Under the pieces are notes generated by a model. It was not told the DNA's origin. It saw only the letters and a program-made list of their open reading frames with translations, and did no database searches. Shown piece after piece: positions 36,685-55,766 of a DNA stretch of 64,000 nt. The stretch covers positions 1 through 64,000 of IMG/VR virus record IMGVR_UViG_2802429351_000001. One strand, 5' to 3'. Position 1 is the first letter of the stretch, and every line of letters starts with the position of its first letter. This stretch comes from a virus. Its lineage: Duplodnaviria; Caudoviricetes. A program made the translations under genes and the position numbers.

Positions 36685-37681
36685 AGCATGGGATATACTA
36701 ACACCAGAAGAAAAATCAGCTTTAAGCCTTTCAACTAATTATGGTAAAAGTAGTTGGGAGGCAGGGGAAATACTAAATAAACCCCATTATAAATATTTGG
36801 AGATACAGGCCAGGGCTAAAACCTTCTTCAAGATATTTACTATCTATTTTGAAAAAACACAAGGTAATATAATCCCTATAAATTCTGACATGACTTGGGA
36901 TTTACAAGAATTTATTTTATGCACTATACAGAATAGAAAAGGTTATAGAGAAACATTGAAAATAATAGGTAAAGAAAGCCCTTTATCACATAAGAAAGCA
37001 TCACAAAGATTATTAGCTTTAGAAAAACACTTAGATTTCCTAGAAAATCACCCTGATCGTATACATAGGGATTTACATGATCTCATTAAGGAATTTGACA
37101 GGTGGAATAATTTTAGGATATTACCCCCAGAACTCCAGGAACCTTCAGCTTTCAAAAGGCGTAATAAAACCAGGTTATTAAAACATCTTAAAAATCTTAA
37201 AGAGCTTAATCCCTTTGATATAGATAGGTTGATGTTTAAATTTTCTGCTAAAGATAAGTACAAAGGTAGAAAACTATACTTACCATTGGTATCAGATAAT
37301 TTCCCAGATGGATATCAAGTAATAATAATAAAAGGTACATCTAAAATTGTTAATTATATTTCAGTTAACCTTAACCTCTACATTTTCAAAGACAAATTAG
37401 AAGCGGATGACTATGGGTTTCTAGTGGAAGACTATCTTAATAAAGGAAAGAAAAATTGTAAACAAGGTCAAAAGTTTTGGCCACAATTCCGGTTAAAGGT
37501 AGGTAAAGCCTATAATTATGCCCAAGTTAATAATATAATACCTAGAAGGGTAAACCTAGAAACAGCTTTCCGGGATTTAGATAAGTTAACAGTAAATAAG
37601 ATCAAAACCAAAGAAGCCAATGGTATAAATATAGGAGACCCACAGAAATCTGCTAAACAGAGTAAATTCTGGGAAATATAG
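36674..37681 (+). CDS. Putative transcription factor with sigma-region-4-like HTH
   Basis: AWDILTPEEKSALSL....GKSSWEAGEILNK. Start chosen at the ATG at 36674, overlapping the NusG stop. Confidence 0.45.
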   Translation: MNSRAWDILTPEEKSALSLSTNYGKSSWEAGEILNKPHYKYLEIQARAKTFFKIFTIYFEKTQGNIIPINSDMTWDLQEFILCTIQNRKGYRETLKIIGKESPLSHKKASQRLLALEKHLDFLENHPDRIHRDLHDLIKEFDRWNNFRILPPELQEPSAFKRRNKTRLLKHLKNLKELNPFDIDRLMFKFSAKDKYKGRKLYLPLVSDNFPDGYQVIIIKGTSKIVNYISVNLNLYIFKDKLEADDYGFLVEDYLNKGKKNCKQGQKFWPQFRLKVGKAYNYAQVNNIIPRRVNLETAFRDLDKLTVNKIKTKEANGINIGDPQKSAKQSKFWEI

Positions 37682-37705
37682 GTGTTCTATTTATTTTTAT
37701 ATTTG
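37681..37705 (+). promoter_or_regulatory. GGTG-N13-TATATTTG promoter 1
   Basis: ggtg ttctatttatttt tatatttg; 28 nt before an ATG. Confidence 0.8.
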
Positions 37706-37733
37706 AACAAATAAATAAAAATACATATTAAAT

Positions 37734-38255
37734 ATGAAAACTAAAAAAAGAAAGGTTAATAATTATGAACAGGTTATGAAGCAGGCTTCGCACATGACTT
37801 TGAATGATTTAAAAAGACACTGTATATCAAGGGGGATGGATTTTCAAGAACTTATTGATGGTACTGTTATATCTTTACAAAATTGGTATCATAGAAATTC
37901 CAATAATGATATAGATCTTTCTAGGATAGCTAAATTTGATGATTGGTTAGAAAAAATATTAAGGGATAGGGGTAAAGAAGAATTAATCCACCCTCAATTA
38001 CGCTTAAGCTATATAAGTGAAAATCAGAGTGATGATAAACCTAAAAAGGAAAAACCTAAAAAAGAAAAGAAAAAACCCCGGGAAAAAAACAAACATGGTA
38101 TATTCAAAGGCACTAAAAAAGCTTATACCTTTGAATTACAACAAAAGGGTAAAACCCTAACACAGGTCATTAAGAAGGTAACTAGAAAGTTTCCAGATGC
38201 TTCAGATAAATCTATTAAAATCTGGTATAAAAAAGCGGCTAGACTTAATGGGTAG
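37734..38255 (+). CDS. Hypothetical Lys-rich protein, C-terminal HTH-like
   Basis: ORF behind a promoter; KTLTQVIKKVTRKFPDASDKSIKIWY. Confidence 0.65.
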   Translation: MKTKKRKVNNYEQVMKQASHMTLNDLKRHCISRGMDFQELIDGTVISLQNWYHRNSNNDIDLSRIAKFDDWLEKILRDRGKEELIHPQLRLSYISENQSDDKPKKEKPKKEKKKPREKNKHGIFKGTKKAYTFELQQKGKTLTQVIKKVTRKFPDASDKSIKIWYKKAARLNG

Positions 38256-38604
38256 TATTAAAAAAGATAGGTGGTATATAGTTGACCTAAGGAATAAAAC
38301 CCAAGATAAAAAAAGCTATTGGTTATTAAGGGTTAACTTTAGAACCAAAGAAGAGGCAAGGAAAGTACTGAATAAAAATTTAGGTGATAAAATATTATTC
38401 TTTGATATAGTTAAAGGTGTTACAGCTATAGAGTTTGGTTTTAGGTATCCTAAAAATACCAAAGGCCCATCATACCTGGGTTATCTTAGGAAATATGATT
38501 ATCCACCTGAACTTGAAACCATACAACAAAGAAAATCATATCGTACAAAATTCAGAAGATGGAAAAGGAATTACAAAGAAGAATTAAAAAGAAGTTGGGT
38601 ATGA
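38248..38604 (+). CDS. Hypothetical protein
   Basis: In-frame ATG at 38248 overlapping the previous stop. Confidence 0.6.
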   Translation: MGSIKKDRWYIVDLRNKTQDKKSYWLLRVNFRTKEEARKVLNKNLGDKILFFDIVKGVTAIEFGFRYPKNTKGPSYLGYLRKYDYPPELETIQQRKSYRTKFRRWKRNYKEELKRSWV

Positions 38605-38768
38605 AATTAGGTTTTATCATATTTTGGACATTAATAGCCTTATTCCTAATATTTTCACCCGTTTTACTATTGGAAGATGATTCTAAGATAGATGAGCTAT
38701 GTATAATTGTAGGCATCTATATCTTAGTTATATTACTTGAATATACTATCAAAATATTGAAAAAGTAA
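38601..38768 (+). CDS. Small two-helix membrane protein
   Basis: ATGA overlap; two hydrophobic helices. Confidence 0.55.
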   Translation: MKLGFIIFWTLIALFLIFSPVLLLEDDSKIDELCIIVGIYILVILLEYTIKILKK

Positions 38769-38772
38769 TCAT

Positions 38773-39549
38773 ATGGCTAGGAAAAAAAGAAACCGTAAAA
38801 AAAGGGATAAAAAACCTGGTTTATCAAAAGAATTTAGAAAAGAGATAGGTTTAAAACGTAAGAAAAATAAAAAGATAATTGACCCACCTATCACCGAGTT
38901 ACCTAAAGATAGGGAATATATTGAAGCTGAGAAAGAACAAGTAATTGAGGATATATTTGAAGGTAACCTTAATAGATTTATGAGAAAGTATTATAGGGTA
39001 TCAGAAAGGAACCTTATGACATTTTCTAAAGTAGTACCTAAATTACAAAAAGAAAGATCATCAAAAAGGGCTATAAGATGGTTATATAAAAAATGTAGGT
39101 GGCCAAGACACAGGCAAGAAATAATAAATATTCTATTAACCTTGGATAAATATTATGATGTAGAGTTTAGTAGGCCCAATATGGAGGTAGCTTTTGAGAT
39201 ATGGGAATTATTTTCAGATTACGAATTTTCTACATTTTTTAATAAAGCCTATGGTAAAACACTTGATAAAAAAGGTTTTGCTGGTATAAAAAGATTAAAT
39301 AGTAAACAGGCTTTAAAAGAACAAAAAGCTATTGGTTACGTAAAAATAAAGAAATTTGAAGAACTAGATAAAAATTTTGCTCATGTGTATTCCAATATAA
39401 AAGAGAATTTTATATACCCCTTTAATTTTTACCATGGTTTATATAAAGGGCCTAAAAAACATGAGCAAGTACAAATATATATTGGGCACCGATTATGTAA
39501 TGGTTTTCGTAGTGGGTTCTCAAGAGTTGATACTGGAATTAAAATGTAA
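38773..39549 (+). CDS. Hypothetical basic protein
   Basis: 258-aa ORF with Lys/Arg-rich N-terminus. Confidence 0.6.
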   Translation: MARKKRNRKKRDKKPGLSKEFRKEIGLKRKKNKKIIDPPITELPKDREYIEAEKEQVIEDIFEGNLNRFMRKYYRVSERNLMTFSKVVPKLQKERSSKRAIRWLYKKCRWPRHRQEIINILLTLDKYYDVEFSRPNMEVAFEIWELFSDYEFSTFFNKAYGKTLDKKGFAGIKRLNSKQALKEQKAIGYVKIKKFEELDKNFAHVYSNIKENFIYPFNFYHGLYKGPKKHEQVQIYIGHRLCNGFRSGFSRVDTGIKM

Positions 39550-39556
39550 TACTATT
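39550..39556 (+). promoter_or_regulatory. TACTATT box
   Basis: Directly after a stop codon, 24 nt before the ATG at 39581. Confidence 0.5.
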
Positions 39557-39580
39557 ACACATTAACCAAATAATATTAAG

Positions 39581-39847
39581 ATGGCGATAAAAAGAGAGGT
39601 AGTAATAAGAACTTTAAAAATACCTATAGAAAGAAAAGGTGATAAGGTAATTGAAAAAAACGTAGATTCTAAGGAGATTGAGAAATTGGGTGAAGAACCA
39701 AGGACCTTGGAAAATTCGATAGTTGATTTACCTGAGTTAACCCGGGAAATAAAAAACTTTAACCAAAGACAATTCAAGTATGCGGAAGATGATTCTAGCA
39801 TGGACTATATCTTAAAGAAAATAATTAGTAGTAAAAGTAAATCATAA
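39581..39847 (+). CDS. Hypothetical protein
   Basis: ORF with AT-rich leader. Confidence 0.55.
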   Translation: MAIKREVVIRTLKIPIERKGDKVIEKNVDSKEIEKLGEEPRTLENSIVDLPELTREIKNFNQRQFKYAEDDSSMDYILKKIISSKSKS

Positions 39848-39867
39848 ATTCTATAAATAAATTAATT

Positions 39868-40344
39868 ATGACAAAGTTAAAAGGAAAAGAAATAGTAGAC
39901 AGTTACAACCTAGGAGGTGGAATGGTACTTATTAAATTTGCCGATGGGACATTCATTACTGTATATTCTGTATCAGATGTTTTAGAACCTTCTCAATTTG
40001 GTTTTGATGAGGAAGCCACAGAAGAGGAGGATGAAGATCCCGATGAAGAGGAGGAAGAAGAAGACGAAGACCCCGAAGAGGAAGAAGAAGAAGATGAGGA
40101 TGAAGACCCCGAAGAGGAAGAAGAAGAAGATGAGGATGATGAATTAACCGCTGAAGATCTTAAGGAAATGGACTTCGATGATCTAGAGGATGTGGTTGAT
40201 GACAATGAACTCGATATAGAGGTGGATGAATATGAAGATGATGAGGAATCCCTACGATACGAAGTAGCAAAAGCCCTAGGTATCAAATTACCAAAACCTA
40301 AAAAATCCAAAGGTAAAGGTAAGAAAAAAGGTAAAAAGAAATAA
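39868..40344 (+). CDS. Highly acidic protein with E/D repeats and Lys tail
   Basis: Repeated EDEDP(D/E)EEEEE units, ending KPKKSKGKGKKKGKKK. Confidence 0.7.
   Translation: MTKLKGKEIVDSYNLGGGMVLIKFADGTFITVYSVSDVLEPSQFGFDEEATEEEDEDPDEEEEEEDEDPEEEEEEDEDEDPEEEEEEDEDDELTAEDLKEMDFDDLEDVVDDNELDIEVDEYEDDEESLRYEVAKALGIKLPKPKKSKGKGKKKGKKK
40021..40140 (+). repeat. Imperfect tandem repeat encoding EDEDPEEEEEE
   Basis: Three gaaga(t/c)ccc-anchored units; the last two (gaagaccccgaagaggaagaagaagaagatgaggat) are identical. Confidence 0.8.
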
Positions 40345-40352
40345 ACCCGGTA

Positions 40353-40372
40353 GCCCCCTTTAATTAGGGGGT
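40353..40372 (+). terminator. Putative terminator hairpin
   Basis: GCCCCCT-loop-AGGGGGT followed by T-rich sequence. Confidence 0.55.
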
Positions 40373-40425
40373 TCATTTTATTTAACAAGTAAATTTTTAA
40401 TAATCATTTTTTAATAAATTTTATT

Positions 40426-40749
40426 ATGGCAAAAGCAAAAGCAGCCGCTAAGACGACTAAGAAAAAAGAAAAGAAAGAATCTTTTCTAAAAGATAACTAT
40501 GAAGCAGTTATCAATGATTACAATGGTATCAGAACAGATGTTATGCATATCCGAGGCTACGGATGTATAGTAAGGGATGTTAACAAGGAAACTGGGGCTA
40601 TGACATCCGTATTTGTACCTGGGGTAAAACCTAAGAAGAAAAAGGATTACAGATACCTTATCGTAGACAAAGGGCCTAAACCTAAAAAAGATAAAGGAAC
40701 TAAGGCTGCCAAAAGTAAAAAATCTAAAACAGAATCCAGTGAAGATTAA
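40426..40749 (+). CDS. Lys/Ala-rich hypothetical protein
   Basis: Basic tails at both ends. Confidence 0.65.
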   Translation: MAKAKAAAKTTKKKEKKESFLKDNYEAVINDYNGIRTDVMHIRGYGCIVRDVNKETGAMTSVFVPGVKPKKKKDYRYLIVDKGPKPKKDKGTKAAKSKKSKTESSED

Positions 40750-40894
40750 TCTGGATAATTATAAAGATTCTGAAAAGGCTGGTAAAATTATCAGCCTTTT
40801 TTCTGAGCTTAGTCCCGAGGACCAATCAAGGTTAAAGGGGGATTTGGTGGCAAACTCTAGGTTAGGTGGTAATGATATGACCATAAGCACATGA
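40739..40894 (+). CDS. Small hypothetical protein (not in ORF track)
   Basis: GTG start, 51 aa MKINLDNYKD...MTIST*; fills the gap, with ATGA overlap to the next gene. Confidence 0.4.
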   Translation: MKINLDNYKDSEKAGKIISLFSELSPEDQSRLKGDLVANSRLGGNDMTIST

Positions 40895-41145
40895 GATTAG
40901 ATATAGAAGATAAGGATGAATTGGTAGTCTTAGAGGCATCACTATTAAAAATGGTAGATGAGATAATAGTTTCTAAGACTACCATTGAAGTCCTTATAGA
41001 GAATAATGGTAAAGAAGGTTATCCCCCTTATAATAAAGATGACCTAGAAATTTTGGATCAAGAACTAAAAGATGCCAAGAAAACTACTATCTATTTAAAA
41101 GGCCTTATAGAAAAGGTCAATATTTTAAAGAAGGTAAATGGATAA
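40891..41145 (+). CDS. Hypothetical protein
   Basis: Coupled ORF. Confidence 0.55.
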   Translation: MRLDIEDKDELVVLEASLLKMVDEIIVSKTTIEVLIENNGKEGYPPYNKDDLEILDQELKDAKKTTIYLKGLIEKVNILKKVNG

Positions 41146-41848
41146 GAAATTTTACATAAGGTATAGGATTTATTCTCAGAAAGCAGAAAACGCGGATAGA
41201 AATTATCCTAAAAGATTATGTAAAAGTTTAACTAGACTACACCAGAATATAAAAGATGATAATCTTTTTTGGGAAAGAGAGTTCTCTAAAGAAAAACTTT
41301 ATATCAGAACTTTTATACCCAAAAATCTGGAACACATTAATTGCCAATACTATAAACTAATAAAATATATCACCCAATACTTCGGGTGTTATGCGATATG
41401 GCAAACCAAACTTATACCCGGGGCTATTAAACCTATAAATACTTTTGCTATTTCAGGTTATGGCCAAGACTTCTTACTAGCTTATCACTACACTACAAAG
41501 ATAATAGATAACCTTAATGATATGAGGTTCAATATGACTGCTGAGTTTCGTAGGTTAAAAATAAATAAAAGGAGAAGGGGAGAAAGCACCATACATGATG
41601 AGAACTCCCAAATTAAATCAAGTACATTTTTCTATGAAAGCCTAAAGGAAATAGAAAAAGTATTACTAGAAAACCTAGAGCAAAGGCCTACTTATGTAGC
41701 TGTAAGACTGAAAGAAGTATATACTGAGAAATATCTAAGAAGGTTAAGAGTATTACATTTTAGGCAGTATAACTATAAAGGTTTGCCTAAAATAGAAAAT
41801 GCTTTTTCCCGGGAAAATAAATTCCAAAATCGCAGGATAATCAGGTGA
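41138..41848 (+). CDS. Hypothetical protein
   Basis: 236-aa ORF; central part loosely resembles the C-terminal domain of 45651..46373. Confidence 0.6.
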   Translation: MDKKFYIRYRIYSQKAENADRNYPKRLCKSLTRLHQNIKDDNLFWEREFSKEKLYIRTFIPKNLEHINCQYYKLIKYITQYFGCYAIWQTKLIPGAIKPINTFAISGYGQDFLLAYHYTTKIIDNLNDMRFNMTAEFRRLKINKRRRGESTIHDENSQIKSSTFFYESLKEIEKVLLENLEQRPTYVAVRLKEVYTEKYLRRLRVLHFRQYNYKGLPKIENAFSRENKFQNRRIIR

Positions 41849-41868
41849 TCTTTTATATTTTATATTTG
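41844..41868 (+). promoter_or_regulatory. GGTG-N13-TATATTTG promoter 2
   Basis: Exact spacing; overlaps the upstream stop codon. Confidence 0.8.
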
Positions 41869-41889
41869 TATCAAATAATTAATTAAAAT

Positions 41890-42060
41890 ATGAAAATAAA
41901 ATCAATAACTACCTATGTAGAAGATTCTAGCGATAATGAAGATCATGATACAACCGTTAATAATTTTATAACTAGTGTAATACCTATAAAATTAACACAT
42001 AAAGCTTTTGCCCAAGGTTGTATGGTTTTAACCACTATAATAGAATATAACGAGATATGA
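41890..42060 (+). CDS. Small hypothetical protein (56 aa, not in ORF track), paralog of 58770..58961
   Basis: MKIKSITTYVEDSSDNEDHDTTVNNFITSVIP...; first ATG after promoter 2. Confidence 0.6.
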   Translation: MKIKSITTYVEDSSDNEDHDTTVNNFITSVIPIKLTHKAFAQGCMVLTTIIEYNEI

Positions 42061-42428
42061 AAAATCTAAAATTCCATTTTGATAAAATAGACTTCAGTGT
42101 TCAGGCTTTAGAAAATCTAAATAATGAATACCAAGGTAAAAAAACGGGAGAAGTTTACACTAAAAGGTTTCATTACCTACATGGTAAAATCAAATATCAC
42201 ACTAATAAGATTTTAAACTATGGTAAGGGTTTAATAGATAAATGGGATATTAAAACCGTAGATGATAAAAATATTATCCACCAATATTCTATTTATTTAC
42301 CCCATGAATTAACCATTGACCAGGTAACAAGGCTGGTAATGATCAAAACAGGACATTCATATGTCTATCAAATTACTATAGGCGATACCATTGAAACCGG
42401 AAGTTTAATTAAAAACTCGAGTTCCTAA
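42057..42428 (+). CDS. Hypothetical protein
   Basis: ATGA-coupled ORF. Confidence 0.6.
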   Translation: MKNLKFHFDKIDFSVQALENLNNEYQGKKTGEVYTKRFHYLHGKIKYHTNKILNYGKGLIDKWDIKTVDDKNIIHQYSIYLPHELTIDQVTRLVMIKTGHSYVYQITIGDTIETGSLIKNSSS

Positions 42429-42436
42429 GAATTAGG

Positions 42437-42443
42437 TACTATA
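42437..42443 (+). promoter_or_regulatory. TACTATA box (variant)
   Basis: Intergenic, 36 nt before the ATG at 42480. Confidence 0.4.
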
Positions 42444-42479
42444 TATAAATCACTAAGTATAATTAAAATCGCTAAAATT

Positions 42480-43025
42480 ATGGCAACAAAAATTAAAACC
42501 CTTGATGAGGCTAAAGAAGCCGTTAAAACTGAGAAAGGTAATGTGAAAGAAGCTAAAAAGGCTTTAACAGATTACTATAAAGAAAACAAATTAAAGAAAA
42601 CAGGAGATTATTCCGGGGACAAAAAACATTCTAAAAAAATAGCTAAATTGGAAAAAGAGGTAGAAAAAGCTTCAACCAATTTAACCAAGGCACAGGAAGC
42701 AGTTAAAGAACTTAAGCCGGCAGCCAGCAGTCGAACCAAATACGATTACCCGGATGATGTTGATACCCCGGAAAAACGTAAGAAGTATCGACAAAAAATG
42801 AGAGCCGAAGCCAATGGTGATAAACCAAAGAAAAAGAAAGCTTCAAAGGCTAAAGCCAAAAAAGAGGAAAGTCCAGAAGATACCGGATCAAATAAAAAAT
42901 CTTCTACTAAAAAGACCTCCTCTAAAAAGAAGCCGGCTAAGAAAAAGGTAACAAAGAAAAAAGTTACCAAAAAGAAAACCACTAAAGCTAAGGGTAAAAA
43001 GAAATCCACCCCCAAGGATGACTAA
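42480..43025 (+). CDS. Histone H1-like Lys-rich protein with KYDYP motif
   Basis: KKKPAKKKVTKKKVTKKKTTKAKGKKK; TKYDYPDD.DT.EKRKKYRQKMR. Confidence 0.7.
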   Translation: MATKIKTLDEAKEAVKTEKGNVKEAKKALTDYYKENKLKKTGDYSGDKKHSKKIAKLEKEVEKASTNLTKAQEAVKELKPAASSRTKYDYPDDVDTPEKRKKYRQKMRAEANGDKPKKKKASKAKAKKEESPEDTGSNKKSSTKKTSSKKKPAKKKVTKKKVTKKKTTKAKGKKKSTPKDD

Positions 43026-43061
43026 TTACCCCTAACTGGTGGGATACTTTAACTAACCTGT

Positions 43062-43094
43062 AAAGGGCATATCTTTAAATAGTATGCCCTTTTT
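43062..43094 (+). terminator. Rho-independent terminator
   Basis: AAAGGGCATA-loop-TATGCCCTTT followed by TT. Confidence 0.75.
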
Positions 43095-43114
43095 CAATTT
43101 TAATACTTTTCAAG

Positions 43115-43450
43115 ATGGCTAAACAAGAGAAACATAAAAAAATATTTGGACTAAATAAATTACCCGCTAAGGGTTATATCAAAGCCCTGGAAGAACAGGT
43201 AAAGGAACTCAAGGTAGAAAGGGGTAAGGACCAATCATACATTGAAGAGTTAGAGGATAGGTTAAGGGTTATAAAAGAATTAACGCCTGAAGAACTAGAG
43301 TGTATTAAGAAAAATAATGAAGTGATTCGATTAAGAAGTATAAAGAATAAACTAGAAAAGGACCTAAAGAAGTCCAGGGACGAATATAAAGAATTATTAA
43401 CTAAACATATACAACTTAAATTAAAATACGATGAAGAAACATCAAAATAG
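43115..43450 (+). CDS. Coiled-coil hypothetical protein
   Basis: Heptad-like, E/K-rich. Confidence 0.6.
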   Translation: MAKQEKHKKIFGLNKLPAKGYIKALEEQVKELKVERGKDQSYIEELEDRLRVIKELTPEELECIKKNNEVIRLRSIKNKLEKDLKKSRDEYKELLTKHIQLKLKYDEETSK

Positions 43451-43940
43451 GTCAGCAAACCGTAGAAACCAAAGAAAAGCAAATGCTTTCAATAAAAAAT
43501 TAAATTCTGGGTTCATTAAATTAACCGAGGAATTTGCATCAAAGTACTTTGAAATTGCTATGGATACAGATATCCCAAAACAAGAAAAAGAGGATAAATA
43601 CTTTGTAGAGCTTTTTAATAATTTTGATAAAAGATGGAGATATTATGTAAGATACCTTTTACATAATAATCGTAAGGATATAACCCTAGAAGTTGATAAA
43701 AGACAATCAGTCTTAAATAGTTTTAATGAATTTGCTTTAGAGTATATGGAGAAAACCGAAAAAAGAGATACTCCAGAAAATGTTATAGAAAGATATGGCA
43801 TAGAAAAGGTATCACTTGTACTTAATTCAATGGGTGTAAATACCCAGGCTAAAACCAAAGCAGGTTTACAAAAAAGAGTTGATGCTTTAAAACCCGATGA
43901 TGTGACGGTTCTAATAAAGGGTTTACATGGTGAATTTTAA
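43431..43940 (+). CDS. Hypothetical protein
   Basis: Overlapping ORF. Confidence 0.6.
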   Translation: MKKHQNRSANRRNQRKANAFNKKLNSGFIKLTEEFASKYFEIAMDTDIPKQEKEDKYFVELFNNFDKRWRYYVRYLLHNNRKDITLEVDKRQSVLNSFNEFALEYMEKTEKRDTPENVIERYGIEKVSLVLNSMGVNTQAKTKAGLQKRVDALKPDDVTVLIKGLHGEF

Positions 43941-43953
43941 TTTATTATATTTG
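43929..43953 (+). promoter_or_regulatory. GGTG-N13-TATATTTG promoter 3
   Basis: Exact spacing; GGTG lies inside the last codons of the upstream gene. Confidence 0.8.
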
Positions 43954-43975
43954 AATAAATTAATAAATAGAAATT

Positions 43976-44251: not shown

Positions 44252-44256
44252 CAATC

Positions 44257-44622
44257 ATGACCAGAATTAATTGTGGGATACCTCCAGCCGAATTAACAGA
44301 CAAACACCTATTAGCTGAGCATAGGGAGATAAAACGTATACCTAATACTATAAAATCGGGTAAAGCTAAGGTGGAAAACATACCCAGAGTATTTACATTA
44401 GGTAAGGGGCACGTTAAATTCTTCTATGATAAGCTTTATTATTTACATATAAGGTATGTATTATTATATACTGAATGCATAAAGAGGGGTTTTAAAGTTA
44501 CCTTTTATGGGGGTGCATTTGAAGGTTTACCTGACCACTTATATAGGGATTATTGTCCAACAACAGAAGATGAAAGAATCATCAGAGAGAGGATTAAATT
44601 GAGATTATCCGGTGTAAAATAA
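44257..44622 (+). CDS. denV: Pyrimidine-dimer DNA glycosylase (T4 endonuclease V family)
   Basis: MTRIN...P.EL.DKHLLAEHREIKRI, FTLGKGHVKFFYDKL.YL..RY......C..RGF. Confidence 0.92.
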   Translation: MTRINCGIPPAELTDKHLLAEHREIKRIPNTIKSGKAKVENIPRVFTLGKGHVKFFYDKLYYLHIRYVLLYTECIKRGFKVTFYGGAFEGLPDHLYRDYCPTTEDERIIRERIKLRLSGVK

Positions 44623-44635
44623 TAATTTATATTTG
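44611..44635 (+). promoter_or_regulatory. GGTG-N13-TATATTTG promoter 4
   Basis: Exact spacing; GGTG lies within the last codons of denV. Confidence 0.8.
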
Positions 44636-44658
44636 TATAAATTAAATAAAAAATAAGA

Positions 44659-45311: not shown

Positions 45312-45339
45312 GAAAGACCCCAATAATATGGGGTCTTTC
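45312..45339 (+). terminator. Terminator hairpin
   Basis: GAAAGACCCCA-loop-TGGGGTCTTTC. Confidence 0.75.
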
Positions 45340-45350
45340 TCTGTTTATAT

Positions 45351-45375
45351 GGTGTTCTTTTAATTATTATATTTG
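45351..45375 (+). promoter_or_regulatory. GGTG-N13-TATATTTG promoter 5
   Basis: Exact spacing, just after a terminator. Confidence 0.85.
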
Positions 45376-45403
45376 AATAAATTAATAAATAAAATAAATA
45401 GTT

Positions 45404-47033: not shown

Positions 47034-47061
47034 TTCAAATTAGTTGTCAAACGGCTATTAC

Positions 47062-47086
47062 GGTGAATTATTATAAAATATATTTG
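47062..47086 (+). promoter_or_regulatory. GGTG-N13-TATATTTG promoter 6
   Basis: Exact spacing. Confidence 0.8.
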
Positions 47087-47130
47087 TATTATCAAATTAA
47101 AATAAATTATTAATTAAAACCATTTAGATT

Positions 47131-47481: not shown

Positions 47482-47552
47482 TCATATGGAAACTGTATTA
47501 GTATAAGGGGGTTGTATTTAATGGTATAATCCCCTTATTAATGTGTTATACC

Positions 47553-47577
47553 GGTGTTCTTTAATTTATTATATTTG
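47553..47577 (+). promoter_or_regulatory. GGTG-N13-TATATTTG promoter 7
   Basis: Exact spacing; nearly identical to promoter 5. Confidence 0.85.
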
Positions 47578-47611
47578 AATAACTAATAAAATAAAAAAAA
47601 ATATAGAAACT

Positions 47612-47887: not shown

Positions 47888-47904
47888 TCTAAAACACATA
47901 TAAA

Positions 47905-48827: not shown

Positions 48828-48950
48828 ATGAAAGATTTAAAACCCTGGGAAATTATAGGCTTAATATATATTGCCTATGCTATATTTTTATTTATGATAG
48901 CCTGGGCCTTAAGTAAGGATAAAAAACCTAAAAAAGGTGATAAAAGGTGA
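48828..48950 (+). CDS. 40-aa single-pass membrane peptide (not in ORF track)
   Basis: MKDLKPWEIIGLIYIAYAIFLFMIAWALSKDKKPKKGDKR*. Confidence 0.45.
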   Translation: MKDLKPWEIIGLIYIAYAIFLFMIAWALSKDKKPKKGDKR

Positions 48951-48970
48951 ATTATTAATTTCTATATTTG
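48946..48970 (+). promoter_or_regulatory. GGTG-N13-TATATTTG promoter 8
   Basis: Exact spacing. Confidence 0.8.
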
Positions 48971-49002
48971 AATAAATTAATAATAAATAAAAATAAGTAA
49001 TT

Positions 49003-50258: not shown

Positions 50259-50284
50259 TAATCCCTAAAAATTATAATATATTA

Positions 50285-50312
50285 CAAAGGCTCTACACTA
50301 AGGGCCTTTGTT
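50285..50312 (+). terminator. Terminator hairpin
   Basis: CAAAGGCTCT-loop-AGGGCCTTTG followed by T-rich sequence. Confidence 0.65.
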
Positions 50313-50419
50313 TGTTTATAGGCCTTAAACCCTTACAAATAAAGGCCTTATAATATATTATATTAAATCAAATCCTTTGGGCTTCCTAGAGCTCGACAAA
50401 AGAAGACAGTTGTTTATAT

Positions 50420-50444
50420 AGTGAATTATTAATTACTATATTTG
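50420..50444 (+). promoter_or_regulatory. AGTG-N13-TATATTTG promoter 9
   Basis: Exact spacing. Confidence 0.8.
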
Positions 50445-50468
50445 AATATAATTAATAAATAAAATAAA

Positions 50469-50693
50469 ATGGAAAAACACCTAACATCTAATGAAATAAA
50501 ATTAATAGGCTTATTAGTTCACTCTTCACAAAACCATGAGCTTATAGAAGAGCTTATCGAAGACTCTTGGGATGAAATGGAAATGGATATTCCCAAGGAT
50601 TTTGATTACGTAGAAGAACTAGAACAACTTAAAAGGTTATTCCCAGACCCTGAAGAGAATGTGTTAGAATATTTAACTATAAAAAACAAATAA
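50469..50693 (+). CDS. Hypothetical acidic protein
   Basis: First ORF after promoter 9. Confidence 0.6.
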   Translation: MEKHLTSNEIKLIGLLVHSSQNHELIEELIEDSWDEMEMDIPKDFDYVEELEQLKRLFPDPEENVLEYLTIKNK

Positions 50694-51181
50694 TGGAAAA
50701 CTCAAATTACACCTTCGAAGATTTCGAAAAAGAAAGAGAACACCTATTACAATATATTGAGGTAGTAGGTAAGAAAGCCCCCAGTAAAGAATTTTGTCAA
50801 ATGTTCTTTAATAGAATTACTAAAGGCTGGGAATTATCCCAGGAAAAATGGAGGGGTGATTTAATAGATTACCATGCTTGGGGTTATGCTTTTTATGGTG
50901 ATATAGATTATAATGGTGAAATCATAGCAAATTCCCTAAATATATGGCATTGGTTATCAGTTTATGGTATAAATGGAACTGACCCAGAGGAAGGTGTTTC
51001 TATAGAGATTACTTATAACCAGTATAGTTTCCTTTGGGATTTATTACAAAAGAACAAAACCTTTAATCAAGGGGTTATAGATAAGGCTCATACTATAAAT
51101 AGGAATACTTCTGGATTAGAGAAAAAAGCCCAGGATAATATAGATATGATTAATAAATTGTTAGATTCATTAACCGAGTAA
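50693..51181 (+). CDS. Hypothetical protein
   Basis: Coupled ORF. Confidence 0.6.
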   Translation: MENSNYTFEDFEKEREHLLQYIEVVGKKAPSKEFCQMFFNRITKGWELSQEKWRGDLIDYHAWGYAFYGDIDYNGEIIANSLNIWHWLSVYGINGTDPEEGVSIEITYNQYSFLWDLLQKNKTFNQGVIDKAHTINRNTSGLEKKAQDNIDMINKLLDSLTE

Positions 51182-51183
51182 TT

Positions 51184-51588
51184 ATGAGAAAGTTATTTAT
51201 ATTAATGGTAGGCCTATTATTTATATCATGTGAGTATATTGGCCCTGGGGAAACAGAAAGGGGTTTTACTACTTATGTATGGTTTAACCCCGATAACCTT
51301 GAAAAAATAGATATATCTGCTTACCCGGATAGGGAGATATATACGGTAGAAAATGGTAATATGTTTAAAATAGGCTGGGAAATACAAGGAATAGATTACC
51401 ATTTAAGGGTAGAATTTCCTGATGGTATTATAGATAAAGTAAACTTTACTGGTACCGATATAAGAAAAGGAGAAGAATATCCCAATGATTCAACATTTAC
51501 CCAGGTACAACCTCAGGTAAATTTATTGGATACACAGGATGGTAAATATCTATTAATAATATATACAGATTGTTATAAATGTCAATAG
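51184..51588 (+). CDS. Lipoprotein
   Basis: MRKLFILMVGLLFISC: basic start, hydrophobic core, lipobox Cys. Confidence 0.7.
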   Translation: MRKLFILMVGLLFISCEYIGPGETERGFTTYVWFNPDNLEKIDISAYPDREIYTVENGNMFKIGWEIQGIDYHLRVEFPDGIIDKVNFTGTDIRKGEEYPNDSTFTQVQPQVNLLDTQDGKYLLIIYTDCYKCQ

Positions 51589-51834
51589 AGATATATCAAA
51601 TATTCGGCGGATTAGAGATTTTAATAATCCTAGTTTTATTATTAATGTTTTTAAAAGAATATCCAAAACTGAGATGAGAAAGAATACACTAGAACCTAAT
51701 AAAAAAGCTATAAAATTATTAAACCATTATAGTAAGAAAAATGCTCTAGCTAAGGCTATATCTAAAAGAAAAGAGATGCCAAAAGGAACTATTGGGTACT
51801 TCTACTGGAAAGATGTAATTAAAATTATAAAAAA

Positions 51835-52050
51835 ATGATTAGTAATATAAGTCCAGAAATAGAAGCAAAAGTATTATCCTGTGTAGATAATATAAAAAGA
51901 AAGAATATACCTAAAGTATTAGGTGTAACAACAGCTTTGGTTAACTATATATTTGCTAAACATAAGATCAAGAGAAAGCCTAATAAGTATGATAAATATG
52001 GTAGGCTAAAAGAAACACATAAAACAATATACCATTATGACAAAGATTAA
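51835..52050 (+). CDS. Small HTH protein (putative)
   Basis: NIPKVLGVTTALVNYIF. Confidence 0.5.
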   Translation: MISNISPEIEAKVLSCVDNIKRKNIPKVLGVTTALVNYIFAKHKIKRKPNKYDKYGRLKETHKTIYHYDKD

Positions 52051-52234
52051 GATGATCACAGTATTTGATCCACTATCAGGTAAAGATATTAATCTACCTT
52101 TACCAACTACTAAGTATGAATTGGTAAAGGCTACTATAAACGATATGAAAAAGGCTAACCCGGGTAAGGATATCAAAATAACCAGGGTTCAAGATGAGTT
52201 AATTTATGAGCCCGTGGACCCTAAAAATGAGTAA
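52037..52234 (+). CDS. Hypothetical protein
   Basis: Overlapping ORF. Confidence 0.5.
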   Translation: MTKIKMITVFDPLSGKDINLPLPTTKYELVKATINDMKKANPGKDIKITRVQDELIYEPVDPKNE

Positions 52235-52238
52235 TACC

Positions 52239-52263
52239 AGTGTTTTTTAATTTCTTATATTTG
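52239..52263 (+). promoter_or_regulatory. AGTG-N13-TATATTTG promoter 10
   Basis: Exact spacing. Confidence 0.8.
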
Positions 52264-52287
52264 AATATAATTAATAAATAAAAAATA

Positions 52288-52533
52288 ATGGAAAATTTTA
52301 TTGTAGGCAAAACAGTATTAAAAGGCATAGATAAACAAACCTTCCAAGACGCAAAGAATTGGTTAGACCAACAAAATGGCTGCCCTTATGATATTGATGA
52401 ACATGTATTAGATGCAGCTAATAATATATCACAAGAAACCGGTGAAACAGTAGTGGAAGTAATAGAATCATGGGCATATAGTTATAATGACCTAATGGCA
52501 GAGAAAGGTTTAAAAGAATTAAATAAACAATAG
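52288..52533 (+). CDS. Hypothetical protein
   Basis: First ORF after promoter 10. Confidence 0.6.
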   Translation: MENFIVGKTVLKGIDKQTFQDAKNWLDQQNGCPYDIDEHVLDAANNISQETGETVVEVIESWAYSYNDLMAEKGLKELNKQ

Positions 52534-52541
52534 TTATAGTT

Positions 52542-53060
52542 ATGGATAAAGGGATACTAAATGCAAAGCTTCTCCAAGATGGGAGATCATTCTGGACAAC
52601 AGACAATGGGTTCACATTTAAAATGCAGGACCAAAAAGGTGAAATCTTAGAAGTAACAGAGGCTTATTATAAGAAAATGCTAACACTGTGGAGAAAGGAG
52701 CAAAAACAATATAAGAAGGCGGGTAAGATTTTGGATAAAACTCATAAAACTATCGAAAAAGGTTTTGAAAAAGCAGAGTCTGAAAGAGTTGAATTTGTAA
52801 AAGCTTTAAAGAAAGGTATACCAGTAAGACCCTTAGGGATAGGTTATGCACATACTGATTTACATGATAATGAGCTTAGGAGTATAGGTCATAAGGCTTC
52901 TCATTATTTACCAAAGGATGAGATTACAATAAACCTAAGAGCACTAGATGAAGAAGCCTTGGATGACCTTAAGTTTATATTAGAAGATCAACTAGGAATG
53001 AAACCAGATGACACCAACGAGAAGGCATTAGATGCTATTAATAACTATAAAGAACTATAA
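52542..53060 (+). CDS. Hypothetical protein
   Basis: 172-aa ORF. Confidence 0.6.
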   Translation: MDKGILNAKLLQDGRSFWTTDNGFTFKMQDQKGEILEVTEAYYKKMLTLWRKEQKQYKKAGKILDKTHKTIEKGFEKAESERVEFVKALKKGIPVRPLGIGYAHTDLHDNELRSIGHKASHYLPKDEITINLRALDEEALDDLKFILEDQLGMKPDDTNEKALDAINNYKEL

Positions 53061-53064
53061 GATC

Positions 53065-53385
53065 ATGAAACACATAAGAGTTAAACTAGCAGAGACAAAA
53101 ACCCAGGTAAATATCCTAACAATAAAGGATAACAATAGTGTTTATCAAACTGTACTGGATAATCAAGAACTACAAAACCTAAAGGATGAGCTAAATATCA
53201 ATAAGGCCGAATCAGAAGATAATCACCTATCACCTGTAAAAATTAGGGCCTTAGCAGAACTAAGAAAGGCATATAGACAATACGAAAACCATAAAAACCT
53301 AAGATATCTAGAATTAAAGGATAACTACCTTAAGATAGGACTAATCACCCAAGCGGATATAACAGAACTACTCCTAAAACAATAA
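53065..53385 (+). CDS. Hypothetical protein
   Basis: In-frame ATG at 53065 just after the previous stop. Confidence 0.55.
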   Translation: MKHIRVKLAETKTQVNILTIKDNNSVYQTVLDNQELQNLKDELNINKAESEDNHLSPVKIRALAELRKAYRQYENHKNLRYLELKDNYLKIGLITQADITELLLKQ

Positions 53386-53390
53386 TAACA

Positions 53391-53897
53391 ATGAAACAAC
53401 CAGTAGAAATAAAGGTAATCAAAACCTTATACAAAGGTAACCAAAACCTAACACAAATAATGTTCACCAATCGCAATAAGGGAGGCATTATAAGTAAACA
53501 ATCCTTAATCACCTTAGATGAGAAAGAACTACAATCACTTAAAAGCCAATTAAACGATAACGGTAAATCTAATAGATTAAGTTATACACCTAACCCTTGT
53601 AAAGGTGAAGCAGATAAAGAAGTTAACCAATGGATAAGCGTGGAAGATAGATTGCCAAATGGTGACACAGAATCCAATGAAACTGAAGTTGAAGTAATTG
53701 GTTATAATGAAAATTGGGTTCATCCAGATTTTAACCCCAATGGAACTAGAGTTTGTTGCATGGATGATTTTGGTTGGTATTCCGCTAGGTGGAATAATGA
53801 ACATACTTTTTACAAAGATGTTAGTCCAGAAGAAGAGGATAATCCAACACATTGGAGACCAATACCAAAATCACCTAATCACCCAAAACACAAATAA
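53391..53897 (+). CDS. Protein with C-terminal DUF551-like domain
   Basis: NQWISVEDRLP....EVEV.G......PTHWRPIPKSP. Confidence 0.7.
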   Translation: MKQPVEIKVIKTLYKGNQNLTQIMFTNRNKGGIISKQSLITLDEKELQSLKSQLNDNGKSNRLSYTPNPCKGEADKEVNQWISVEDRLPNGDTESNETEVEVIGYNENWVHPDFNPNGTRVCCMDDFGWYSARWNNEHTFYKDVSPEEEDNPTHWRPIPKSPNHPKHK

Positions 53898-54088
53898 CAA
53901 TGAATACAATAGAATTAAAAACCAACACACCTATAATAGGTAATCACCAACTAATTATCACAGACGAATGTGATAATGAAACCACCCACAACCTTAGTGA
54001 CTATGAATTAGAACAACTAATCACCCAGGTATCAAACCTAACCAACAACCCAAAAACAAAAATAAATCTTTAAATAAATAAAACAATT

Positions 54089-54895
54089 ATGAGAACACCA
54101 AGGCCAATAGGAACAACAAACATAGGGGCATCAATAAATAATAATCAAGATAACAACCTATTACAATTACATATAATAGATTCATATATCAATAGCAATT
54201 TCACTTACTGTAATAAGGCCATGAGCATAGAAGTATTTGCAAGGTATATAGGAATAGACAGACAGATGATATTAGAAAGGATTACTAATAAGGGTAAAGA
54301 TCTATATCAAATGGTAGACCCAGAACAACAAGGTGATCAACTCAGGGCACTAATTGGAATCACTCTAGGAAATGCACTGACTGACCGTAGCTTAGCTCTA
54401 GAGCAGCATAGTATACTAGCTTCTGAGCAAGGGGGTGTATACAAACCTTTCATTTCCGGAGAGGTCAATAAGGCCCTAAAGCTAGTTATGGAATCCACAT
54501 CCGGAATCCTTAATATCGCCAAATCGCTAGGGGGCAACCAAGGCCTTAATATAACTCTGAACAACCACAATGGCGATAACAACCAAGAGAACCATAATTA
54601 CCTTACTGCCCATCAAGCATTAGAACTTATGCATCAGCAGGCTAAGTTAGAAGACGGCCCCTCGTTGCTGGAAGATCCATCCGCTAAGAAGGCCTTATTT
54701 GAAAAGTATAATATAGGGGCTACTCCTATTGTAAAGGCTAATGAACAACAAGGCCTTGATGATAGTCGAGAGGGCCTTAATTTTAAGGATCTGGCACAGT
54801 TATCAGATAGCAAGGTAGACCGGCCAGCTAAGGCTACACATATAGATAGAAGGGCTAGGGAGATTGAGATAGATCCTGATGAGGATCAGATATAG
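54089..54895 (+). CDS. Conserved hypothetical protein, terminase small subunit candidate
   Basis: HTH-like SIEVFARYIGIDRQMI, helical core, beta segment LNITLNN; abuts the repeat cluster. TerS identity is inference only. Confidence 0.35.
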   Translation: MRTPRPIGTTNIGASINNNQDNNLLQLHIIDSYINSNFTYCNKAMSIEVFARYIGIDRQMILERITNKGKDLYQMVDPEQQGDQLRALIGITLGNALTDRSLALEQHSILASEQGGVYKPFISGEVNKALKLVMESTSGILNIAKSLGGNQGLNITLNNHNGDNNQENHNYLTAHQALELMHQQAKLEDGPSLLEDPSAKKALFEKYNIGATPIVKANEQQGLDDSREGLNFKDLAQLSDSKVDRPAKATHIDRRAREIEIDPDEDQI

Positions 54896-55093
54896 GGCCT
54901 TAAGTCCTTAATACATATTGAAAGTTTTGTTGGGGGTAAAGTACTCGTGGTAGGGCTCTGGGATTAATATCTTAGGGCCTTATTTATGTTGTTTTAGGGC
55001 CCCCAGCAAAGGTGCTTTACTTACGATCTTAGGGCCTTCAATGGTAGGGCCTTATTGTTGAGGTGATTTAGGGCCTTAATAGACTAGGGCCTT
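54893..55093 (+). repeat. Cluster of TAGGGCCTT direct repeats
   Basis: Exact copies at 54893, 54973, 55030, 55045, 55069, 55085; variants TAGGGCTCT at 54951 and TAGGGCCCC at 54995; irregular spacing; non-coding. Confidence 0.85.
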
Positions 55094-55103
55094 TAAGCAG
55101 TCT

Positions 55104-55111
55104 ACGGCCGT
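55104..55111. promoter_or_regulatory. ACGGCCGT palindrome (putative operator)
   Basis: 12 nt upstream of the GGTG of promoter 11; same arrangement at 55722. Confidence 0.55.
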
Positions 55112-55123
55112 AAAGGATAATCT

Positions 55124-55148
55124 GGTGTTTTATTAATTATTATATTTG
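55124..55148 (+). promoter_or_regulatory. GGTG-N13-TATATTTG promoter 11
   Basis: Exact spacing. Confidence 0.8.
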
Positions 55149-55181
55149 TATTATAAATAAATAATTAAATAAATAGAAATT

Positions 55182-55586
55182 ATGAAATCAATTACAGCAG
55201 ATCAAATCCTTAAAAACACCTACACATTAGGCAAAGCATTTAGGGAATTACCAACTAACCTTATAAGTAAACTTTTATCAGATGACCTTAAAACACCTAG
55301 GGATTTAAATTCATTTAACCCCTGGAAAAACTATTTACCAAAAAGGACCTTTTTTCAAACAGAGGGTGATTTAAATGAGCTCTACCTTATGGCCATAAGG
55401 GATATGTTATCACCTTATGATTTGATTAATCCCAGGGTACCAGGTTTTATTAATCTGGTGGATTTTGCAATGGCATCCAGTGATATTATGGGTTATGAGG
55501 AATTTGAGAAACTAGAGGTAGTTCAGGATTGGAAACATGAATACCCTAATATGTTCAAGACACTATTGGTATGGGCTTGGGGTTAA
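55182..55586 (+). CDS. Hypothetical protein (monocistronic)
   Basis: Own promoter and terminator. Confidence 0.65.
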   Translation: MKSITADQILKNTYTLGKAFRELPTNLISKLLSDDLKTPRDLNSFNPWKNYLPKRTFFQTEGDLNELYLMAIRDMLSPYDLINPRVPGFINLVDFAMASSDIMGYEEFEKLEVVQDWKHEYPNMFKTLLVWAWG

Positions 55587-55593
55587 TTTATAT

Positions 55594-55622
55594 AAGGCCT
55601 AGGATTATATCCTGGGCTTTGT
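55594..55622 (+). terminator. Terminator hairpin
   Basis: AAGGCCTAGGA-loop-TCCTGGGCTTT. Confidence 0.7.
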
Positions 55623-55721
55623 TGTGTAAGGATACTGTGTTAGGGCCCAGGAGCAATGGGTGTATGTATATGGCTTGAGGGCCTTATAGAGGATTAACCT
55701 AAAGGCCTTAATACTCCTTCG

Positions 55722-55729
55722 ACGGCCGT
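55722..55729. promoter_or_regulatory. ACGGCCGT palindrome (putative operator)
   Basis: 12 nt upstream of the GGTG of promoter 12. Confidence 0.55.
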
Positions 55730-55741
55730 GGTAGTATTACT

Positions 55742-55766
55742 GGTGAACTTTAATAAATTATATTTG
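55742..55766 (+). promoter_or_regulatory. GGTG-N13-TATATTTG promoter 12
   Basis: Exact spacing. Confidence 0.8.

What the first reader, a model, noticed from the sequence alone, without database searches (positions are those of the whole stretch)
37681..55766. Twelve exactly spaced (G/A)GTG-N13-TATATTTG promoters: a possible phage-specific promoter class built on the host -7 box
Seen: the motif starts at 37681, 41844, 43929, 44611, 45351, 47062, 47553, 48946, 50420, 52239, 55124 and 55742. The spacer is exactly 13 nt every time, and each copy lies 21-44 nt before a start codon. The GTG is kept even where it falls inside upstream codons (41844, 43929, 44611), which argues for selection. Known: TAnnTTTG is the Bacteroidota sigma70 -7 box, normally paired with TTTG 19-21 nt upstream. 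Inference: the GTG, at about -28 to -25, replaces the -33 element and may be read by a phage activator that appropriates host RNAP (conceptually like T4 MotA/AsiA), or it may be an extended -7 element. I do not recall this architecture being described.
Basis: partly seen in the sequence, partly recalled or inferred. Interest (0 to 1): 0.82.

Follow-up and report, generated by a model that had tools for sequence, protein, structure and literature searches.

The report
Phage promoter class: GTG replaces -33
An uncultured 78.6-kb phage of Bacteroidota starts twelve blocks of small genes from promoters that keep the host's -7 box but replace the usual -33 box with a fixed GTG. Its close relatives do the same, while more distant relatives and a Bacteroidota replicon (not the host) do not, so an unidentified protein probably reads the GTG.

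Summary
RGTG-N13-TATATTTG occurs 12 times, all on the + strand, where 0.06 copies are expected, and no other spacing occurs more than chance allows.

The copies head 12 transcription units holding 46 small ORFs (37.7-56.6 kb) in a complete, uncultured myovirus with distant T4-like features. The motif is longer than reported:
- G-rich at -39..-37
- invariant GTG at -28..-26, followed by TTYT
- no G from -25 to -14
- TATATTTG at -12..-5
- A at the predicted +1

The same architecture is kept in all seven distinct relatives examined that share 50-82% identity in a marker protein. More distant relatives have the same -7 box at matching positions but use canonical TTG-N20 or other upstream elements. 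A 400-kb Prevotella replicon shows a strong TTG-N19/20 peak and no GTG-N13 peak.

GTG therefore stands in for the -33 element and is specific to this clade. What reads it is not shown. My best guess is an accessory protein (activator-like, MotA-like in logic), but the genome has no MotA or AsiA homologue.

They more likely serve a second, family-wide ACTATT promoter class.

Earlier scan notes describe promoter cassettes in other Bacteroidota phages, but none with GTG-N13.

The parts
37671..37710 (+). GTG-N13 promoter 1 (-39 to predicted +1). It overlaps the stop codon of the 335-aa gene and heads 8 ORFs (37734-41848).
   Evidence: the same site is conserved in L286, G009, G004, L128, L133 and L134
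41834..41873 (+). GTG-N13 promoter 2, heading 5 ORFs (41890-43940)
43919..43958 (+). GTG-N13 promoter 3. GTG lies inside the last codons of ORF 43431-43940.
44601..44640 (+). GTG-N13 promoter 4. GTG lies inside the last codons of ORF 44257-44622 (pyrimidine-dimer glycosylase).
45341..45380 (+). GTG-N13 promoter 5, directly after terminator hairpin 45312-45339
47052..47091 (+). GTG-N13 promoter 6
47543..47582 (+). GTG-N13 promoter 7, after a G+C-rich hairpin
48936..48975 (+). GTG-N13 promoter 8
50410..50449 (+). GTG-N13 promoter 9 (AGTG), downstream of terminator 50284-50311
52229..52268 (+). GTG-N13 promoter 10 (AGTG)
55114..55153 (+). GTG-N13 promoter 11
55732..55771 (+). GTG-N13 promoter 12
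56892..56923 (+). The only canonical host-type promoter in the genome (TTTG-N20-TATATTTG), in front of the 159-aa gene
56964..57443 (+). 159-aa lysine-rich protein, a candidate immediate-early factor. It has a non-GTG promoter in all 3 complete GTG-clade genomes. A homologue is present in both complete GTG-clade relatives compared and in 1 of 6 other relatives.
   Evidence: no family or fold match
16404..17072 (-). Sigma-70-family-like protein (222 aa), conserved in all eight complete relatives compared. It is probably not the GTG reader.
17107..17114 (-). Bare TATATTTG box with A/T-rich upstream DNA (no GTG, no TTG). This is the promoter of the sigma-like gene.
35965..36684 (+). NusG/antiterminator-like protein (weak matches only), found across the family
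36674..37681 (+). 335-aa protein whose first ~55 residues have a sigma region-4 fold. It is family-wide, and its recognition helix is nearly invariant.
38773..39549 (+). Very basic 258-aa protein, detected only in GTG-clade genomes (both complete relatives compared, against 0 of 6 others)
40426..40749 (+). 107-aa protein with lysine-rich tails, detected only in GTG-clade genomes (both complete relatives compared, against 0 of 6 others)
41138..41848 (+). 236-aa basic protein, detected only in GTG-clade genomes (both complete relatives compared, against 0 of 6 others)

Best explanation
The twelve copies are the promoters of twelve successive units of small, mostly unknown genes, which I infer to be early genes. 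The phage is an uncultured myovirus of Bacteroidota with distant T4-like features.

Shown:
- Each unit carries a perfect host-type -7 element, TATATTTG (T-12 to G-5).
- An A lies 5 nt downstream, at the predicted start.
- The leader is A/T-rich and has no Shine-Dalgarno sequence.
- There is no -33 TTG.
- An invariant GTG sits at -28..-26, followed by TTYT. A G-rich patch lies one helical turn upstream, at -39..-37.
- This module is conserved in related phages at 50-82% marker identity.
- In more distant relatives it is replaced, at matching positions, by canonical TTG-N20 or other elements.

Inferred: host RNA polymerase with its primary sigma recognises the -7 box. GTG lies 7 bp too close to the box for sigma region 4 to reach it in the normal geometry. 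It is therefore most likely the docking site of an accessory protein that recruits or stabilises polymerase in place of the -33 contact. This is the logic of class-II, PhoB or MotA-type activation.

The protein would be specific to this clade. Candidates are the 159-aa product of 56964-57443 and the clade-restricted basic proteins 38773, 40426 and 41138. The 159-aa gene keeps a non-GTG promoter in all three complete GTG-clade genomes.
For: - Counts and fixed spacing.
- Position before genes and after terminators.
- Logo of 49 sites from 6 genomes. Of 61 promoter-like sites chosen without reference to GTG, 49 have GTG at N13 and 4 at N14.
- Conservation in G004, G009:C36, L128, L133, L134 and L286.
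- Rarity elsewhere: 1 of 57 and 5 of 200 promoter-like sites in more distant relatives carry GTG at N13, and canonical TTG-N20 occupies the matching sites.
- Bacteroidota replicon control: TTG at N20 47 times and at N19 16 times against a background of about 6; GTG at N13 twice against about 3.
- F. johnsoniae start-site data: 4-5 nt between box and start site, and A/T-rich motifs at -18 and -28 (PMC6847099).
- The sigma-like gene and the 159-aa gene keep non-GTG promoters in all three complete GTG-clade genomes.
Against: - There are no transcription data; the phage and its whole family are uncultured.
- No DNA-binding fold or family was found for any clade-specific candidate.
- The genome has no MotA or AsiA homologue.
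- Most clade-specific candidates are themselves behind GTG promoters.
- The 159-aa protein also has a homologue in one genome without GTG-N13 (G008).
- tblastn can miss fast-evolving small proteins.
- Early genes normally have to be read by unmodified host polymerase.
- The true host is unknown, and no Flavobacteriia chromosome could be scanned.
Confidence: 0.45

Rival explanations
1. Host machinery alone reads the module. The promoters would be strong early promoters read by unmodified host polymerase, with GTG contacted by the polymerase itself or by a host transcription factor whose box the phage copies.
For: - Early genes must be expressed before any phage protein exists.
- The region holds dense small ORFs, each block with its own promoter and sometimes a preceding terminator, as in T4 early regions.
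- Each lineage of the family has its own upstream module, and one of them is simply the canonical -33 element.
- Bare -7 boxes appear sufficient in F. johnsoniae.
- Earlier scan notes report phages copying host Pho boxes or host strong-promoter blocks.
Against: - There is no GTG-N13 signal in 568 kb of Prevotella DNA, in p5482 or in a Flavobacterium phage.
- In F. johnsoniae the -28 region is A/T-rich.
- A contact 7 bp inside the normal -33 position has no known structural basis; this rests on established sigma-70 holoenzyme geometry.
- The true host was not tested.
Confidence: 0.27
2. GTG(TTCT) is an operator. A clade-specific repressor would bind there to shut the early units off together, while the sigma-like gene and the 159-aa gene escape.
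For: - The site lies inside the polymerase footprint.
- Two conserved genes consistently lack it.
- The clade-restricted proteins are very basic.
Against: - There is no dyad symmetry around GTG in G000 or G004.
- The apparent palindrome around the -7 box is not above shuffled controls.
- Loss of the -33 element in every copy is better explained by a positive role.
Confidence: 0.12
3. The phage's own sigma-like protein (16404-17072) or the sigma-4-like 335-aa protein reads GTG-N13-TATATTTG, as the first reader suggested testing.
For: - The 222-aa protein has a sigma-like two-domain fold.
- The N-terminus of the 335-aa protein has a sigma-4 fold.
- The first GTG promoter abuts the 335-aa gene.
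Against: - Both proteins are conserved in all eight complete relatives compared, whatever upstream element those genomes use.
- The recognition helix is nearly invariant across clades.
- A family-wide ACTATT motif before replication and structural genes is a better partner for them.
- The sigma-like gene itself sits behind the same -7 box, so host sigma must read that box.
Confidence: 0.08
4. GTG has no function of its own and is carried along in a promoter cassette that spreads by recombination.
For: The modules are about 63% identical pairwise, and some copies are nearly identical.
Against: GTG is invariant in 49 sites from genomes whose core proteins are only about 50% identical, while neighbouring positions vary.
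Confidence: 0.05

Closest known systems
Bacteroidota primary-sigma (sigma-ABfr / sigma-A) promoters: -33 TTTG, 19-21 nt spacer, -7 TAnnTTTG
   Same: A perfect -7 element, an A at the expected start distance, an A/T-rich spacer and a leader without a Shine-Dalgarno sequence.
   Different: No -33 TTG in any of the 12 copies. An invariant GTG lies 13 nt before the box, at -28..-26, where F. johnsoniae promoters are A/T-rich.
T4 middle promoters (MotA box about 12 bp from the -10 element; sigma appropriation by MotA and AsiA)
   Same: The host -10-type element is kept and the -35-type element is missing. A phage-specific box sits at a fixed short distance (13 against 12+/-1 bp), and there are many copies before small genes.
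   Different: The box sequence and centre differ (about -27 against -30). The genome has no MotA or AsiA homologue.
T4-type early promoters and promoter/stem-loop cassettes (PeSL) in hyperplastic regions
   Same: Repeated, strongly conserved promoter modules, often just after a hairpin, each heading a few small ORFs. The phage has a T4-type terminase, gp32, a RecA/UvsX-like protein and SbcCD-type (T4 gp46/47-like) nuclease genes.
   Different: T4 early promoters keep a -35 element at normal spacing. These promoters do not.
PhoB/OmpR-type class-II promoters (activator box replaces -35)
   Same: There is no -35-type element. G-containing patches lie one helical turn apart (-38 and -27) just upstream of the -10-type element.
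   Different: There is no recognisable direct repeat, and no response regulator has been identified.

Membership tests
Bacteroidota sigma-A (-33/-7) promoter | -7 element TAnnTTTG | tested here: met
   TATATTTG in 12 of 12 copies
Bacteroidota sigma-A (-33/-7) promoter | -33 TTTG/TTG placed 19-21 nt upstream of the -7 element | tested here: not met
   0 of 12 copies. The positive control works: 47 TTG at N20 in Prevotella DNA and 12 in relative G006.
Bacteroidota sigma-A (-33/-7) promoter | Transcription starts 4-5 nt after the box | not testable with these tools
   A lies 5 nt after the box in 43 of 49 sites. No RNA data exist.
T4 MotA/AsiA middle promoter system | Host -10-type element kept, -35-type element absent, and a phage box at a fixed short spacing | tested here: met
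   (an analogy of layout only)
T4 MotA/AsiA middle promoter system | MotA homologue (DNA-binding MotCF domain) | tested here: not met
   PF09158 gives no six-frame match at E<=1
T4 MotA/AsiA middle promoter system | AsiA homologue | tested here: not met
   PF09010 gives no six-frame match at E<=1
Sigma-70 family (for ORF 16404-17072) | Two-domain sigma-2 plus sigma-4 fold | tested here: inconclusive
   Most of Foldseek's top 50 hits are sigma factors, but E is 0.04 or higher. VIA Z is 6.4-8.0, which is middling for helical proteins. No Pfam match at E<=0.01 and no PHROG match at E<=0.001; only phrog_3741 (unknown function) at E=0.0024.
Sigma region 4 HTH (N-terminus of the 36674 product) | Three-helix -35-binding domain | tested here: met
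   SigD4, SigC4 and SigE4 match at rmsd 0.8-1.1 over 48-53 residues, with target-normalised TM 0.68-0.80

The most novel reading that the evidence does not exclude
A clade of uncultured Bacteroidota phages has evolved its own sigma-appropriation-type system, unrelated in sequence to MotA/AsiA. An early phage protein would dock on GTG at -27 and redirect host polymerase from -33-dependent host promoters to about 12-16 phage promoters that lack the -33 element.
Probability: 0.3. Interest if true: 0.8.

Novelty: new variant of a known kind. Interest (0 to 1): 0.56.

Why it matters
Transcription initiation in Bacteroidota is poorly understood, and almost nothing is known about how their phages programme it. 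Here a natural comparison is available. Sister phages carry -33/-7 promoters and GTG(-27)/-7 promoters at matching positions, so the promoter element was replaced in concert across many copies.

This gives a compact, testable promoter variant for Flavobacterium or Bacteroides reporter and in vitro systems, together with a short list of candidate factors. If a phage factor reads GTG, it would be the first sigma-appropriation-like mechanism reported outside T4-type coliphages. It could also serve as an orthogonal expression switch for Bacteroidota.

Tried and rejected
- **Palindromic operator around the -7 box:** the best inverted repeats (mean arm 7.0) are no better than in shuffled sequence (6.5+/-1.4).
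- **GTG as the 3' arm of a terminator hairpin:** no complementary arm exists in G000 or G004. By eye, three N14 sites in G009 do show such repeats.
- **Close relatives by DNA search in deposited phages:** none. A pattern scan of IMG/VR returned only single, chance-level hits.
- **Alpha-CTD-like ORF as a common reader or a clue to the host:** it is present only in G004. Its relatives are repeat proteins, not RpoA.
- **Obtaining a Bacteroidota chromosome handle:** this failed by every route. A genome-wide Flavobacteriia test was therefore not run.
- **Flavobacterium phage immuto as a proxy:** it hardly uses -7 boxes, so it is uninformative.
- **Atlas, Pfam and PHROG searches of candidate factors:** nothing usable.
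- **Literature searches:** no description of this architecture was found.
Full report
**Observation.** The pattern RGTG-N13-TATATTTG occurs 12 times in the window, at exactly the starts given and always on the + strand. Shuffled sequence gives 0.06 copies. The rest of the genome holds no further copy. The spacing is fixed: GTG-Nx-TAnnTTTG gives 13 hits at x=13 and 0-2 at every other x from 9 to 19 (both-strand histogram). The thirteenth hit (39917) lies inside a gene. Each box lies 21-44 nt before a start codon. At 37681, 41844, 43929 and 44611 the GTG overlaps the end of the upstream ORF.

**Genome context.** The window is bases 1-64000 of a complete 78,590-bp IMG/VR virus record with a 99-bp terminal repeat. 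The record encodes:
- tail sheath, tape measure and baseplate J proteins
- family-A DNA polymerase, SbcC and a PDDEXK resolvase
- a T4-type large terminase

Syntenic relatives also carry gp32 and a RecA/UvsX-like gene. The phage is therefore a small myovirus with distant T4-like features. The -7 box and the leaders without a Shine-Dalgarno sequence point to a Bacteroidota host. No cultured relative exists. The twelve motifs head twelve units with 46 small ORFs between 37.7 and 56.6 kb, almost none with a known family. Promoters 45351 and 47553 sit right behind G+C-rich hairpins, and promoter 50420 lies about 110 nt downstream of terminator 50284-50311.

**Anatomy.** I took numbering from F. 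johnsoniae start-site data: T-12, A-11, T-8 to G-5, with 4-5 nt between the box and the start (PMC6847099). I collected promoter-like sites from six related genomes without using GTG as a criterion. Of 61 sites, 49 have GTG at N13 and 4 at N14. The logo of the 49 sites shows:
- G-rich at -39..-37
- invariant G-28, T-27, G-26
- T-25, T-24, Y-23, T-22
- no G at all from -25 to -14
- TATATTTG at -12..-5
- A at the predicted +1 in 43 of 49 sites
- an A-rich leader

The base before GTG varies between genomes (G, A, T or C), so the core is GTG.

**Comparative evidence.** The 335-aa gene that ends at the first promoter belongs to a large uncultured family, with 654 homologues and 401 IMG/VR loci. Every relative I examined with 50-82% identity in this protein keeps GTG-N13-TATATTTG:

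| Relative | GTG-N13 sites |
|---|---|
| L286 | 1 in a 4.9-kb contig, at the matching site |
| L134 | 6 |
| L128 | 6 |
| L133 | 4 |
| G009:C36 | 10-12, plus 4 at N14 |
| G004 | 14-16 |

Relatives at 35-44% identity do not keep it. GTG at N13 occurs at 1 of 57 promoter-like sites in six complete genomes and at 5 of 200 in 79 further loci. These relatives still have TATATTTG at matching places, for instance before the orthologue of 37734, but with other upstream elements:
- GGATTTGCA-N18, which is a canonical -33 (G006)
- TTGCA-N18 (L132, G011, G005)
- lineage-specific modules (G007, G010, G008)

In the GTG clade, TTG at N20 is at background level (1-2 per genome). In G006 it occurs 12 times.

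**Bacteroidota controls.** In 400 kb of a Prevotella nigrescens replicon there are 290 boxes. They show a clear TTG peak (47 at N20 and 16 at N19, background about 6) and no GTG peak (2 at N13, background about 3). The whole 568-kb record has 2 matches against 1 for the reversed control pattern. B. thetaiotaomicron p5482 has none. The F. johnsoniae study reports A/T-rich motifs at -18 and -28 and only a weak -33. GTG at -27 is thus not a known or detectable feature in the Bacteroidota DNA available to me. The true host, and any Flavobacteriia chromosome, could not be tested.

**What reads GTG.** This part is inferred. GTG lies 7 bp closer to the box than the -33 element, too close for sigma region 4 in the usual holoenzyme geometry. 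GTG is invariant between genomes whose core proteins are about 50% identical, which argues for a sequence-specific reader. The replacement of TTG-N20 by GTG-N13 in all promoters of one clade together argues for a change in a trans-acting partner. The layout resembles T4 middle promoters and PhoB-type promoters, but the genome has neither a MotA DNA-binding domain nor AsiA.

In all three complete GTG-clade genomes, two conserved genes keep non-GTG promoters:
- The sigma-like gene has a bare box with A/T-rich upstream DNA.
- The 159-aa gene 56964-57443 follows the only canonical TTTG-N20 promoter in G000 (56892-56923). In G004 its promoter is TTG-N20-TAAATTGG, and in G009 it is an A/T-rich upstream region with TATATTTG.

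By tblastn, the 159-aa protein has a homologue in both complete GTG-clade relatives compared and in 1 of 6 other genomes. Four other proteins (38773, 40426, 41138, 46370) are found in both GTG-clade relatives and in none of the 6 others. None of them has a recognisable fold or family. These are leads only.

The product of 36674-37681 begins with a domain that matches sigma region 4 closely (rmsd 0.8-1.1 over 48-53 residues). The product of 16404-17072 gives a two-domain model, and most of its structural neighbours are sigma factors, with modest scores. Both are present in all eight complete relatives compared, whatever upstream element those genomes use, and the sigma-4-like recognition helix is nearly invariant across clades. 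They therefore do not track GTG.

A second motif does fit them. ACTATT(A/T) lies 15-40 nt before gene starts 11 times in G000, against 1.8 expected. It is enriched in 8 of 9 genomes and conserved before orthologous replication and tail genes in all clades. The most economical programme is:
- -7-box promoters, read by host sigma, for small genes and for the sigma-like gene
- ACTATT promoters, read with the phage sigma-like factor, for replication and morphogenesis

**Rejected ideas.** An apparent palindrome around the -7 box is not above chance. GTG is not part of a hairpin in G000 or G004. An alpha-CTD-like ORF occurs only in G004.

**Verdict.** GTG as a clade-specific substitute for the -33 element is well supported. 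The identity of its reader is open:
- accessory protein, activator-like: about 0.45
- host machinery alone: about 0.27
- repressor operator: about 0.12
- phage sigma-like protein: about 0.08
- no function of its own: about 0.05

I found no description of this architecture in the literature searched. Earlier scan notes report other promoter cassettes in other Bacteroidota phages, but not this one.

Noticed in passing
window 5458-5463, 17163-17168, 21887-21892, 27149-27154, 35409-35414, 39551-39556; also G000 64785-64790 (- strand), 65778-65783 and 71946-71951: ACTATT(A/T) lies 15-40 nt before the starts of replication and structural genes (11 sites against 1.8 expected). It is conserved at orthologous genes in all clades of the family and is probably a second (middle/late) promoter class with only a -10-like element, as in T4 late promoters.
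   Followed up: partly
window 54896-55181, 55587-55790, 50259-50468, 56606-56963: Dense TAGGGCCTT / AGGGCC-type repeats lie in G+C-rich non-coding gaps between early units. They could mark an origin, a pac site or protein-binding sites.
   Followed up: no
G000 about 64.90-64.93 kb (L127 about 1900-1930), outside the window: A perfect 7-bp-arm palindrome, GGTCACT-CAC-AGTGACC, lies in the 318-bp divergent region between the leftward genes and the structural block. It is flanked by ACTATT boxes in both orientations and looks like an operator.
   Followed up: no
G004:C1:64497-64658 (same as L130:19683-19934): A relative in the GTG clade encodes an 83-aa protein that matches the RNA polymerase alpha C-terminal domain (PF03118, E=5.6e-10). 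It is absent from G000 and G009. Its nearest relatives are repeat proteins rather than RpoA.
   Followed up: partly
G011 (IMG/VR relative), promoters at 55559, 64882, 66862 and 77581: In this sister lineage the canonical -33 TTGCA sits in the loop of a hairpin. The stems differ in sequence from site to site but stay complementary, so terminator and promoter overlap.
   Followed up: no
G009:C36 15547, 16550, 18096: Three promoters have GTG at N14. There the GTG adjoins the 3' arm of 6-10-bp inverted repeats (for example AAAGTGAACA / TGTTCACTTT) that are followed by T-runs.
   Followed up: partly
whole family: The phage belongs to a large, entirely uncultured family of 75-87-kb myoviruses with a T4-type terminase (401 IMG/VR loci, including 3300045988-series records). 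Copies are mis-binned into MAGs labelled Spirochaetaceae, archaeon and Collinsella.
   Followed up: partly
window 44257-44622 and 62549-63589: A pyrimidine-dimer DNA glycosylase (DenV-like, PF03013) sits behind a GTG promoter. A C5 cytosine methyltransferase ends the unit behind the canonical promoter.
   Followed up: no
window 39917-39940: An intragenic GTG-N13-TAAATTTG is also present in the 82% relative L286. It lies within coding sequence, so it is probably conserved for that reason rather than as a promoter.
   Followed up: partly
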